This document shows positions 56,801 to 59,800 of a DNA stretch of 64,000 nucleotides, piece after piece (within the stretch, counting starts at the first letter, position 1; every line of letters begins with the position of its first letter). The DNA is from Escherichia coli (lineage in GTDB: Bacteria > Pseudomonadota > Gammaproteobacteria > Enterobacterales > Enterobacteriaceae). The DNA lies in NCBI RefSeq assembly GCF_003018255.1, contig NZ_CP027440.1; one strand, given 5' to 3'. The position numbers are program-made.

Positions 56801-59800
56801 ACATAGAAGGCACCGGCAAAAATTACGCTTTTCGTAATGGTGAATATGTCGATGCGTATTATATGGCGCGGGTGAAGTAAGATAGTGCCCTTTTTCTGAG
56901 ATGGAAAAAGGGTGTCATTCAAAATCTGCATACCTTCCTTTAAGGTATTTATTTGCCCAATACATATATTGAGATTTAACTCATAATTACTTCCTAAAGT
57001 GTAATATTTTATTTTTTAATATATACGCCTACAATTTCCTGGCGTAAATAAATAACAATTAACAAGCATAATATTGCCATTGATAAAATAGCATGCCATA
57101 AAAGGACTTTTCAGGGATGAGTAATATTGTTTACCTGACAGTAACGGGAGAACAACAAGGAAGCATCTCCGCAGGTTGTGGGACTTCTGAGTCTACAGGT
57201 AATCGCTGGCAGAGCGGGCATGAGGATGAAATATTTACATTCTCACTCTTAAATAGTATTACTAATACGGGGCTTGGTTCACAGTTCCATGGTATAACAT
57301 TTTGTAAATTAATTGATAAAAGCACTCCATTATTTATTAATTCCATTAACAATAATGAACAGTTATTTATGGGATTTGACTTCTATCGAATAAATAGATT
57401 TGGCAGATGGGAAAAGTATTATTATATACAACTAAGAGGCGCTTTTTTATCGGCTATTCATCACCAGATCTTTGAAAACCAACTGGATACAGAAACAATA
57501 ACTGTTAGTTATGAATTTATCCTCTGCCAACATCTTATCACTAACACCGAGTTCAGCTATTTGGCACTCCCTGAAAATTATAACCGCTTGTTTTTACCAA
57601 ATTCAAAAAACAAAACAAATAATGGTTTAAAAACGTTAAACAGCGAAGCTGTTGGCAGGCTACTTGCTGCTGGTGGCGTATACAATGGGAACATTGAAGG
57701 TTTCAGAGATACTGCGGAAAAACTGGGTGGAGATGCAATCAAAGGCTATGATCAAATACTAAATGAAAAAACAGCGGGCATAGCGATAGCAACAGCATCT
57801 ATTCTTTTAACAAAGCGTTCTAATGTTGATACATATACAGAAATAAATAGTTACTTAGGCAAACTTAGAGGTCAACAAAAACTTCTTGATGGTATAGACA
57901 TAATAGAAATAATATACATTAAGAGACCTTCAAAAGACTTAGCTAACTTACGAAAGGAGTTTAATAAAACTGTAAGAAAAAATTTTCTTATCAAACTTGC
58001 AAAAACCTCCGAAGAATCTGGAAGATTCAACGCCGAAGACCTTTTAAGAATGAGAAAGGGCAATGTTCCTCTAAATTATAATGTTCACCATAAACTATCT
58101 CTAGATGATGGTGGTACTAATGATTTCGAAAATTTAGTATTAATCGAAAACGAACCATATCATAAAGTTTTTACTAACATGCAATCACGAATAGCTAAGG
58201 GAATATTAGTAGGTGAAAGCAAAATCACTCCCTGGGCCATTCCATTTGGCTCAATTTATCCTCTCATGAAAAATATTATGGAACCCACAAAATGATGACT
58301 AAAACCCAAATAAATAAATTAAAAAAAATGATGAATGATTTAGACTATCCATTTGAAGCACCGCTCAAGGAATCATTTATTGAAAGTATAATCCAAATAG
58401 AATTTAATTCTAATTCAACTAATTTCCTGGAGAAATCATGTAATGAAGTTAGTATTCTTTTTAATAATCAACCTGATTATCTTACTTTTTTAAGAGCAAT
58501 GGATGGATTCGAAGTTAATGGATTACGATTATTTAGCCTCTCGATTCCAGAACCTTCAGTTAAAAACCTTTTTACCGTAAATGAATTTTATAGAAATAAT
58601 GATGATTTCATAAACCCTGATCTACAAGAACGGTTAGTGATCGGGGATGATAGCATTTCAATATTTACTTATGACATTAAAAGTAACTTTTTTGAAATTA
58701 GAGATAATATTGGCACCGAAAATATATTCAGTTCGTTTAGTGATTTCTCTTCATTCTTAAACGAAATCATGGACAGTTGTTCATAATAATCAAAAGGTAA
58801 CAAAAATCATTGTAAACCATGCCATCTTTTTAGAGATTACCAACAGAAAATTCCTTGTTCGAAACTTAGCAAATGCAAGCTATGGAAAAACTTACAACGG
58901 AACTACACTCCTTAAGTAAGATGGGCCGAAGACATGTAATCTCTATTTTAGCCGAAATAGCTAATGGCTATGATGATTTTAGTGACATGTTGATTTAGTT
59001 AGAATTTCACCCGAATCATAAGATTCTGATATCTTAAATAAGAAAATCCCGTTCGACGTTCTGAAAAAGAAATCACAAAATATTAGCAGATACTTATTTC
59101 GTGACTGTATATTATCCGATGAACTTTTTTCAAAACCAGCATTTAATAATATCTTTGACGAAGATGAACACGCCTTTTCTCAAAGTATAACGCAAGAATA
59201 ATAATATAACGCTCAACAATAATATTTATTATAATTATGATTACTTATCACGACGCATTCGCGAAAGCGAACCATTACCTTGATGATGCAGATCTCCCTG
59301 TCGTCATCACTCTGCATGGACGTTTTATCCAGGGCTGGTATTTCTGTTTCGAATCACAAGAATTTCTTGAATCTGGTGATGAGGCCGCGCGCTTAGCCGG
59401 TAACGCACCTTTTATTATTGATAAAGACAGTGGTGAAATTCATTCCCTTGGAACGGCAAAGCCGCTGGAAGAATATCTACAGGATTATGAAATAAAAAAG
59501 GCTACCTTCGGCTTGCCCTGACAATACGGCCCTCTTCCCACGAAGAGGGCCGCTAACCTTAATACCCCGCCGTTAAATCATCTACTGAGCGCGGGTCGGA
59601 TGCGCCGTACAACTCACCGTCAGGCCCAACCATAATGCTTTGTGTACTGCCCATCGCCTCTTTCAGCGCCACTTTCTGACCTTTTGCTTCCAGCAGCTTG
59701 AGCGTATCCGGGCTAAATCCTTTCTCGACACGCAGCTCATCCGGCAACCACTGATGGTGGAAACGCGGTGCATTGGTCGCTTCGGCGACATTCATACCAT

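What the first reader, a model, noticed from the sequence alone, without database searches (positions are those of the whole stretch)
58787..59236. AT-rich 450-bp spacer between the immunity-like gene and yrhB
No ORF of 60 aa or more is present, but short ORFs exist, for example an ATG at 58882 encoding about 38 aa. From memory this is where K-12 carries IS1, so the region is plastic. Such spacers downstream of polymorphic toxin loci often hold decayed orphan immunity or toxin-tip cassettes.
Basis: inference. Interest (0 to 1): 0.3.

Follow-up and report, generated by a model that had tools for sequence, protein, structure and literature searches.

The report
Dead orphan immunity gene (yrhD relic)
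The AT-rich "spacer" between yrhA and yrhB in this E. coli is mostly the broken remains of an immunity gene left behind when the neighbouring secreted toxin swapped its killing domain, so it is an ordinary but tidy piece of genomic debris, not a working element.

Summary
Window 58787-59236 is a 450-bp, 31% GC gap between yrhA and yrhB, and its longest ORF is 41 aa. The 38-aa ORF at 58882 is the annotated gene yrhD (51 aa in K-12), cut short here by a TAT>TAG nonsense codon.

yrhD is itself a fragment. Window 58788-59037 aligns end to end with an unnamed family of about 84-aa helical proteins (profile built without E. coli: E 4.5e-17 for the K-12 allele). These proteins sit directly after one conserved toxin tip on CdiA/TPS exoproteins, or alone in orphan arrays. 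At the orthologous yhhY-ggt site in a Citrobacter-like contig, an Hcp protein 68% identical to YhhZ's first 234 residues carries that toxin tip, followed by an intact family member.

E. coli therefore replaced that tip with an HNH tip plus yrhA and stranded the old immunity gene. The stranded gene has no start codon. It shows pN/pS of 1 or more and at least three independent nonsense mutations, found in at least 867 of 3804 genomes.

The 3' 200 bp (59038-59236) has no detectable homolog. K-12's IS1 lies in yrhA, about 100 bp upstream, not in the interval. Interest is low to moderate.

The parts
58788..59037 (+). Relic of an ~84-codon orphan immunity gene (the ancestral full-length 'yrhD'). The family alignment puts the lost start codon at about 58773-58781, overlapping the yrhA stop.
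   Evidence: A profile built only from non-E. coli members hits the six-frame window at just two places: 58761-58916 (profile positions 5-32, E 4.2e-5) and 58870-58995 (positions 34-67, E 1.6e-6). The K-12 allele hits as a single piece at E 4.5e-17. hhalign gives 98.7% probability.
58871..58873 (+). One extra A in an A-run (AAA here, AA in other strains). It shifts the 5' third of the relic out of frame with the rest.
   Evidence: Alignments. The profile hit splits across two frames at this point.
58882..58998 (+). yrhD pseudogene allele: 38 codons followed by TAG. Codon 39 (58996-58998) is TAT (Tyr) in K-12 and TGG in phylogroup B2 strains.
   Evidence: This TAG allele is present in about 362 complete genomes.
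59035..59037 (+). Ancestral TAA stop of the immunity gene and of K-12 yrhD.
   Evidence: The family proteins and the E. coli frame end at the same alignment position.
59022..59204 (+). A 59-codon stop-free stretch with no start codon, followed by TAA TAA. Its origin is unassigned: possibly an unrecognisable relic, possibly plain non-coding DNA.
   Evidence: No homolog outside E. coli was found. Pfam finds nothing. The stretch is no longer than shuffles give, pN/pS is about 0.9, and the K-12 allele has a TAA inside it.
59205..59236 (+). Immediate 5' flank of yrhB. Similarity to E. coli genomes that carry yrhB alone begins at 59221.
   Evidence: L004. The promoter-like hexamers at 59177-59205 and 59213-59241 are consensus matches only and are no more frequent than in shuffles.
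57117..58295 (+). yhhZ/tssD, an Hcp-fused HNH toxin of the Hcp-ET1 type. Hcp plus linker (to about 57811) is shared with the Citrobacter-like Hcp toxin. The HNH tip (about 57812-58295) is the replacement cassette.
   Evidence: Pfam T6SS_HCP and weak HNH hits, and TIGR03344. 68% identity over residues 1-234, with DNA similarity ending at 57811.
58292..58786 (+). yrhA, the immunity-type partner of the HNH tip. K-12's IS1 is inserted at the equivalent of ~58673-58684.
   Evidence: NF038335 YrhA family, E 6e-37. IS1 position.
59237..59521 (+). yrhB, an intact Imm35-family orphan immunity gene.
   Evidence: Pfam Imm35, E 7.9e-22. pN/pS is about 0.1-0.2. Homologs elsewhere follow papain-like toxin tips.
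56881..59528 (.). The whole variable AT-rich island between yhhY and ggt, of which the finding is one part.
   Evidence: Genomes with an empty site resume similarity at 56880 and 59529. GC profile.

Best explanation
The 5' 250 bp of the interval (58788-59037) is a dead orphan immunity gene.

Proposed history: the Hcp-fused toxin at the yhhY-ggt site once carried a different C-terminal toxin tip, which looks like a restriction-endonuclease-fold nuclease. An ~84-aa helical immunity protein was encoded directly after it. This arrangement survives intact in a Citrobacter-like genome. In the E. coli lineage of this island, a cassette made of an HNH nuclease tip plus its partner yrhA replaced the old tip. 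The old immunity gene was left just downstream with no start codon and no toxin to guard against.

Since then it has drifted neutrally. K-12's 51-aa 'yrhD' is only the C-terminal part of it, read from an internal Met. In this window it is broken twice more, by a 1-nt insertion and by a TAG at codon 39, so I infer it does nothing here.

The 3' 200 bp (59038-59236) has no recognisable ancestry. At most it supplies the upstream region of yrhB.

Shown: the homology, the gene-neighbourhood pairing, the orthologous Citrobacter-like locus, the disabling mutations and the lack of purifying selection.

Inferred: the immunity function of the family, the nuclease nature of the lost toxin, and the order of events.
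For: (1) Homology. tblastn of the reconstructed frame finds 82-84-aa genes in Rahnella and Pantoea. An exhaustive phmmer search finds P0014 at E 4e-4 among 1.8 billion proteins. A profile search gives 168 family members. A profile that excludes E. coli hits only this spot in the 64-kb window, and hits the K-12 allele at E 4.5e-17. hhalign gives 98.7% probability.

(2) Pairing with a toxin. Family genes overlap, by 4-14 nt, the end of one conserved ~115-aa toxin tip. This is seen in a full-length Photorhabdus CdiA, in a Lelliottia orphan, in Quatrionicoccus TPS and orphan copies, and in Citrobacter sp.. Others stand alone in CDI orphan arrays.

(3) Orthologous locus L040. It reads yhhW-yhhX-yhhY-Hcp toxin-family gene-ggt-yhhA-ugpQ. 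Its Hcp part is 68% identical to YhhZ residues 1-234. Its tip is 82% identical to the Photorhabdus CdiA tip.

(4) Decay. The E. coli frame has no start codon and deviates at 5 of 7 nearly invariant columns. Independent defects include TAG39 (362 genomes), an internal TAA plus ATG>ATA in B2 strains (458), and TAA7 (47). Substitutions in the yrhD frame are 0 synonymous to 6 non-synonymous against K-12, and 1 to 11 against UPEC 536. yrhB, by contrast, has pN/pS of about 0.1-0.2.

(5) PGAP itself marks the ORF as a pseudogene in the strain whose interval is 100% identical.
Against: - The immunity role of the family rests on gene neighbourhood only. No member has been tested, and there is no Pfam or NCBIfam model and no solved structure.
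- The E. coli relic is only 23-38% identical to family members. Orthology with the Citrobacter-like gene, as opposed to arrival with the island from another allele, is therefore not proven.
- No remnant of the lost toxin tip is present in E. coli.
- About 73% of genomes that carry the interval keep the 51-codon yrhD open. A SELEX study placed a constitutive promoter upstream of it (PMC3946193). Expression of a small peptide in those strains is therefore not excluded.
- The 3' 200 bp is unexplained.
Confidence: 0.82

Rival explanations
1. yrhD is a genuine small-protein gene (51 aa) with its own function. The window simply carries a recent loss-of-function allele, and the similarity to the 84-aa family reflects exaptation of its C-terminal half.
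For: The ORF is open at the tested sites in about 2,770 of 3,804 genomes that carry the interval. PGAP names it 'protein YrhD'. A SELEX-inferred RpoD promoter, TAGAGA-18-TATATT, lies upstream at 58699-58728.
Against: pN/pS is 1 or more, with almost no synonymous changes. There are three independent nonsense alleles and a start-codon loss in major lineages, including Nissle 1917 and the type strain. The 51-aa product would lack helix 1 and part of helix 2 of the predicted 4-5-helix fold. No Shine-Dalgarno-like sequence precedes the ATG. The zero diversity reported among 68 copies (PMC3575317) fits recent spread as well as it fits constraint.
Confidence: 0.08
2. The 3' part (59022-59198) is the decayed end of a toxin tip whose immunity gene is yrhB. 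That would make it an orphan toxin-tip plus Imm35 cassette.
For: It is a 59-codon stop-free frame ending 35 nt before yrhB. Imm35 proteins pair with Tox-PL1 papain-like tips (PMC3482391). YrhB homologs in Pantoea piersonii and in a Moraxellaceae genome directly follow such tips.
Against: There is no similarity to those tips or to anything outside E. coli. The open stretch is not longer than chance gives (P about 0.35), and pN/pS is about 0.9. E. coli genomes that carry yrhB alone lack this stretch entirely, with similarity starting at 59221.
Confidence: 0.1
3. The interval is mainly a regulatory spacer: H-NS-bound AT-rich DNA carrying the yrhB promoter. Any coding ancestry is irrelevant to what it does now.
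For: It is 31% GC. H-NS marks and 'promoter islands' are reported over yhhZ-yrhA-yrhD (PMC3946193; PMC3661553). Promoter-like hexamers lie just upstream of yrhB.
Against: Promoter-like sites are no more frequent than in shuffles (10 found against 12.5 expected). Genomes with yrhB alone share only 16 nt upstream of yrhB with this interval, so little of the interval is needed for yrhB. This reading is compatible with the relic explanation rather than an alternative to it.
Confidence: 0.25
4. The interval encodes a small regulatory RNA.
For: It is an intergenic location in a horizontally acquired island.
Against: Rfam gives only two sub-threshold matches to eukaryotic families, both outside the interval. 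There is no terminator-like site in the interval. Sequence divergence between lineages is at a neutral level, 8-11% against B2 strains.
Confidence: 0.03

Closest known systems
yrhD of E. coli K-12 (b4612; UniProt P58037 per PMC3575317), 'protein YrhD', function unknown
   Same: Same position between yrhA and yrhB. The interval is 95% identical in DNA.
   Different: The window allele has TAG at codon 39 and an upstream 1-nt insertion, and PGAP calls it a pseudogene. In the papers searched here and the annotations seen, yrhD is not described as the tail of a longer immunity gene.
Orphan toxin-tip/immunity modules downstream of cdiA and rhs genes, the displacement model of polymorphic toxin loci (Zhang et al. 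2012, PMC3482391; Poole et al. 2011, from my own knowledge)
   Same: An immunity gene is left downstream after the toxin's C-terminal tip and its partner were exchanged. Relatives of the relic sit in CDI orphan arrays.
   Different: The carrier here is an Hcp (type VI) protein, not CdiA or Rhs. The orphan keeps no fragment of its toxin tip and is itself dead.
Hcp-ET polymorphic type VI effectors (Ma et al. 2017, as summarised in PMC6730261), notably Hcp-ET1 with an HNH DNase tip
   Same: YhhZ is an Hcp with an HNH tip followed by an immunity-type gene. The Citrobacter-like locus shows the same Hcp scaffold with another tip.
   Different: That tip is not one of the four toxin domains the review lists for characterised Hcp-ETs: HNH DNase, DUF2235/Tle1, pyocin S3 and colicin DNase.
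TseT-TsiT (PA3907-PA3908) of Pseudomonas aeruginosa and PD-(D/E)xK endonucleases (NucS/EndoMS, BstYI)
   Same: These are the best, though weak, fold matches of the predicted structure of the lost toxin tip: 9oz0_B at TM 0.65 and probability 0.99, 2vld at E 0.02. The tip also conserves an F-D-G ... D-R-K motif.
   Different: No match reaches E 0.001 and there is no sequence similarity. The immunity model matches nothing in the PDB.
Imm35 / YrhB
   Same: Another orphan immunity-type gene in the same island, immediately downstream.
   Different: An unrelated family. It is intact and under purifying selection.

Membership tests
yrhD (E. coli K-12 gene b4612) | Orthologous position between yrhA and yrhB with high DNA identity | tested here: met
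   91-100% identity in 3804 of 5426 genomes, annotated yrhD. Synteny.
yrhD (E. coli K-12 gene b4612) | Intact 51-codon ORF | tested here: not met
   TAT>TAG at codon 39 (58996-58998). PGAP pseudogene in the strain whose interval is 100% identical.
Unnamed ~84-aa helical immunity family (e.g. WP_141495966 of Pantoea, P0071 of Photorhabdus, P0086 of Citrobacter) | Significant sequence similarity to a family profile built without E. coli sequences | tested here: met
   Window pieces at E 4.2e-5 and 1.6e-6. K-12 allele at E 4.5e-17. hhalign probability 98.7%.
Unnamed ~84-aa helical immunity family | Complete ORF of 79-93 codons with a start codon | tested here: not met
   No ATG, GTG or TTG in frame before the internal Met. 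Frameshift at 58871-58873 and TAG at 58996.
Unnamed ~84-aa helical immunity family | Conserved residues (invariant F-L-E, L, Y; nearly invariant I, F, D, E, Q, L, G) | tested here: inconclusive
   All 5 invariant columns are kept, but 5 of 7 nearly invariant columns are changed in the K-12 and window alleles. The B2 allele keeps two more.
Unnamed ~84-aa helical immunity family | Located directly after its cognate toxin tip (KVKWVDENA...VKVVKE), or in an orphan array | tested here: not met
   The upstream gene is yrhA, and there is no trace of the tip in the island. The position relative to the Hcp gene does match the Citrobacter-like locus.
Unnamed ~84-aa helical immunity family | Neutralises the cognate toxin | not testable with these tools
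   Inferred from gene neighbourhood only.
MafI family immunity protein (NCBI's name for member P0052) | Match to a curated MafI or immunity model | tested here: not met
   No NCBIfam or Pfam immunity model matches any of 29 members at E of 1 or less.
Tox-PL1 / Imm35 orphan cassette (for 59022-59198) | Similarity of the upstream frame to papain-like toxin tips that precede YrhB homologs | tested here: not met
   tblastn against 17 YrhB-homolog loci and a Pfam scan found nothing.
IS1 insertion site | IS1 or its scar inside the interval | tested here: not met
   No IS in the window. K-12's IS1 lies at the equivalent of 58673-58684 in yrhA. One strain has an IS1-linked deletion ending at 59112.

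The most novel reading that the evidence does not exclude
The relic points to an undescribed effector-immunity pair. One partner is a ~115-aa toxin tip (KVKWVDENA...FDGVD...DRK...VKVVKE) that looks like a restriction-endonuclease-fold nuclease. The other is an ~84-aa four-to-five-helix immunity protein. Neither has a Pfam model or a solved structure, and the pair is carried on both type V (CdiA/TPS) and type VI (Hcp) delivery proteins. A bolder reading is that in K-12-type strains the still-open 83-codon frame is occasionally expressed and retains some protective activity. One natural variant, for example, is a 1-nt deletion that fuses the frame to YrhA (P0010).
Probability: 0.07. Interest if true: 0.5.

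Novelty: new member of a known kind. Interest (0 to 1): 0.3.

Why it matters
It explains an orphan E. coli K-12 gene of unknown function: yrhD is the tail of a dead immunity gene, not a small-protein gene. It also gives a clean, datable example of toxin-tip replacement in an Hcp-fused type VI effector, with the 'before' state preserved at the same chromosomal site in a Citrobacter-like genome. It flags an unnamed toxin/immunity pair shared between contact-dependent inhibition and type VI systems that could be tested directly. For annotation, it argues that yrhD should be marked as a pseudogene remnant.

Tried and rejected
- Curated libraries: Pfam, NCBIfam and PADLOC scans of all stop-free stretches in six frames, and of the reconstructed protein, found nothing. 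The same libraries run on 29 family members also found nothing.
- Rfam at a permissive threshold gave only two chance-level eukaryotic hits, both outside the interval.
- The promoter/terminator scan was not above shuffles.
- First word-indexed protein search with a 105-aa fusion returned only E. coli fragments.
- PDB by sequence found no relevant hit for the family or the toxin tip.
- Foldseek of the immunity model against the PDB gave nothing below E 0.6.
- The 3' 59-codon frame was searched against plasmids, against 1.8 billion representative proteins, and against 27 fetched loci including 17 yrhB-homolog loci. No homolog was found. Its length is not significant and its substitution pattern is neutral. 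My first dN/dS figure for this stretch used the wrong frame and was redone.
- I considered that the yrhA 3' end might derive from the lost toxin tip, because of a shared AGTTGT at the junction. I rejected this: the YrhA family model covers YrhA to residue 163 of 164, and the rest of the junction aligns poorly.
- An intact toxin-tip/immunity cassette was searched for in 5,426 E. coli genomes at blastn sensitivity and was not found.
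Full report
**The observation.** Window 58787-59236 lies exactly between the stop of yrhA (58292-58786) and the start of yrhB (59237-59521). 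It is 450 bp and 30.9% GC, in a window that averages 50.2%. It belongs to a 25-40% GC island reaching from the end of yhhY to the end of yrhB. No ORF of 60 aa or more exists. The longest is 41 aa (58873-58998), and the ATG at 58882 gives 38 aa. So the description is correct. The remembered IS1 is slightly off. In K-12-type genomes IS1 interrupts yrhA at the equivalent of window ~58673-58684, about 100 bp upstream (PMC12428005).

**What is annotated there.** The interval is present at 91-100% identity in 3804 of 5426 complete E. coli genomes. The feature under it is 'protein YrhD'. In K-12-type strains yrhD is a 51-codon ORF. In the strain whose interval is 100% identical to the window (DETEC-S792), and in MRSN346647, PGAP marks it as a pseudogene lacking its C-terminus. 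The cause is TAT>TAG at codon 39, window 58996-58998.

**yrhD is itself a fragment.**
- In K-12 the yrhD reading frame stays open upstream as far as the yrhA stop. Metagenomic gene callers have produced longer versions of it.
- A reconstructed translation was searched by tblastn against plasmid records. It found 82-84-aa genes in Rahnella aquatilis and Pantoea dispersa. The Pantoea gene sits at the end of a CdiA locus with VENN-motif orphan modules.
- An exhaustive phmmer search of 1.84 billion representatives found one further relative outside E. coli, P0014 (79 aa, E 4e-4).
- These proteins align with the E. coli frame from end to end, including a shared stop position.
- A profile search then returned 168 proteins of about 79-93 aa. 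They come from many Enterobacterales and some Betaproteobacteria.
- To avoid circularity I built a profile from 45 non-E. coli members and scanned all six frames of the 64-kb window. The only hits were 58761-58916 (profile positions 5-32, E 4.2e-5) and 58870-58995 in the next frame (positions 34-67, E 1.6e-6). The K-12 allele hit as one piece at E 4.5e-17 and the UPEC 536 allele at 2.3e-15. hhalign gave 98.7% probability.
- The split across two frames matches a 1-nt insertion, an extra A at 58871-58873, that is peculiar to the window's lineage.

**What the family is.**
- It has no Pfam or NCBIfam model and no relative in the PDB by sequence.
- Its AlphaFold model is confident (pLDDT 94, four to five helices). 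It matches nothing solved.
- Gene context is consistent. In Photorhabdus the gene overlaps by 14 nt the end of a CdiA-like exoprotein of more than 2900 aa.
- In Lelliottia it follows a 103-aa orphan toxin fragment inside a CdiA orphan array.
- In Quatrionicoccus two identical copies follow a TPS exoprotein and an orphan fragment.
- In Citrobacter sp. Awk 4 it follows a 207-aa toxin fragment.
- The toxin ends in all these cases are the same ~115-aa domain, 64-87% identical to one another.
- Other members stand alone in orphan arrays.
- This is the signature of a cognate immunity protein, although no member has been tested.
- The toxin domain has no Pfam match. Its model (pLDDT 92) gives only weak fold matches. 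These are to PD-(D/E)xK endonucleases and to a chain of the P. aeruginosa PA3907-PA3908 type VI effector-immunity complex. It conserves F-D-G ... D-R-K. A nuclease is therefore a reasonable but unproven inference.

**The orthologous locus.** One member, P0086, which NCBI names from Citrobacter tructae, lies on a contig with this gene order: LacI-type regulator, yhhW, yhhX, yhhY, a 365-aa Hcp protein, the 84-aa gene (14-nt overlap), ggt, yhhA, ugpQ, ugpC. This is the same chromosomal site as in the window. Its flanks are 77-84% identical in DNA. The Hcp protein is 68% identical to YhhZ over residues 1-234. DNA similarity ends at window 57811. Its last 124 residues are 82% identical to the Photorhabdus CdiA toxin tip.

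E. coli YhhZ has the same Hcp scaffold but an HNH tip (PMC5714182), the type characterised as Hcp-ET1 (PMC6730261). It is followed by yrhA and then by the relic.

The simplest reading is cassette replacement. An HNH tip plus yrhA (about 57812-58786) displaced the older tip, and the older immunity gene was stranded downstream. No intact copy of the old cassette exists in the 5,426 E. coli genomes at blastn sensitivity. No trace of the old tip remains in the island.

**Evidence that the relic is dead.**
- There is no start codon in frame before the internal Met.
- Five of seven nearly invariant family columns are altered.
- Three different nonsense mutations occur in different lineages:
  - TAG at codon 39, in about 362 genomes including the window.
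  - TAA at codon 23 together with ATG>ATA, in 458 genomes including UPEC 536, Nissle 1917 and the type strain.
  - TAA at codon 7, in 47 genomes.
- These counts are lower bounds from exact 28-mers. About 2,770 genomes keep the short ORF open at these sites.
- In the yrhD frame, substitutions between the window and K-12 are 0 synonymous and 6 non-synonymous. Against UPEC 536 they are 1 and 11. yrhB next door has pN/pS of about 0.1-0.2.
- The E. coli sequence is 23-38% identical to the family members in alignment A4, which includes Betaproteobacteria. The Enterobacterales members are mostly 50-63% identical to the Photorhabdus member. This is a long branch, as expected after loss of constraint.

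**The rest of the interval.** From 59022 a different frame is stop-free for 59 codons and ends in TAA TAA, 35 nt before yrhB. It has no start codon. It has no homolog outside E. coli. Its length is not beyond what shuffles give (P about 0.35). Its pN/pS is about 0.9, and the K-12 allele has a stop inside it.

YrhB is an Imm35 protein. Imm35 pairs with papain-like Tox-PL1 tips (PMC3482391), and YrhB homologs in Pantoea piersonii and a Moraxellaceae genome directly follow such tips. The E. coli stretch does not resemble them. E. coli genomes that carry yrhB alone share only the last 16 nt before the ATG with this interval. I therefore leave 59038-59236 unassigned. It may be an unrecognisable relic or the flank of a cassette, and it may hold the yrhB promoter. 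Promoter-like matches there are not above chance.

**Plasticity.** The yhhY-ggt site has at least four contents in E. coli:
- the full island, in 3764 genomes;
- yrhB alone;
- empty;
- a DUF4225 cassette in O157-type strains.

IS1, IS903B and IS421 insertions also occur. One IS1-linked deletion ends inside the interval at 59112.

**Verdict.** The feature is a known annotated ORF (yrhD) whose nature as the tail of a stranded immunity gene I did not find stated in the papers searched. It is a new member of a well-known kind of genomic debris, so interest is low to moderate. The unnamed toxin/immunity pair it points to is the more interesting lead.

Noticed in passing
window 56392-56880 (yhhY): The window's yhhY allele is only about 83% identical in DNA (pS ~0.43) to those of K-12, MRSN346647 and UPEC 536. 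It is 99% identical to that of an empty-site strain (HCM-28C-2). The island genes next to it differ by only 2%. This suggests a recombination breakpoint at the left edge of the island.
   Followed up: partly
L006 1068-2886 (E. coli O157-type, yhhY-ggt site): O157-type strains carry a different cassette at the same site: a 303-aa DUF4225 protein plus about 700 bp containing a 138-aa minus-strand ORF with hydrophobic stretches. I did not examine whether this is another toxin/immunity pair.
   Followed up: no
P0010 (246 aa), equivalent to window 58295-59037 (P0010 starts at the second Met of YrhA): A natural E. coli variant with a 1-nt deletion at the end of yrhA fuses YrhA in frame to the whole 83-codon relic.
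   Followed up: no
L014 ~5640-6014; L012 5703-6014; L017 3500-3884 and 5660-6004; L040 4640-5014: One unnamed ~115-aa toxin tip (KVKWVDENA...FDGVD...DRK...VKVVKE) is carried by CdiA/TPS exoproteins in Photorhabdus, Lelliottia and Quatrionicoccus, and by an Hcp protein in a Citrobacter-like genome. It has no Pfam model. Fold matches to PD-(D/E)xK nucleases and to a chain of PA3907-PA3908 are weak.
   Followed up: partly
P0052 (Lelliottia nimipressuralis): NCBI names this family member 'MafI family immunity protein', but no NCBIfam or Pfam model matches it or its relatives at E of 1 or less.
   Followed up: yes
L027 (Tannerella forsythia ATCC 43037 contig050, 439 bp): A 439-bp contig in a Tannerella forsythia assembly encodes residues 45-94 of E. 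coli YrhB at 98% identity. This is most likely E. coli contamination of that assembly.
   Followed up: no
window 58699-58728: TAGAGA-18-TATATT inside the 3' end of yrhA is the hexamer pair that a genomic SELEX study listed as a constitutive RpoD promoter for yrhD, with an H-NS mark (PMC3946193). Both yhhZ and yrhA are listed as 'promoter islands' (PMC3661553).
   Followed up: partly
window 58292-58295: yhhZ and yrhA overlap by 4 nt (ATGA), the usual coupling of a toxin gene and its immunity gene.
   Followed up: no
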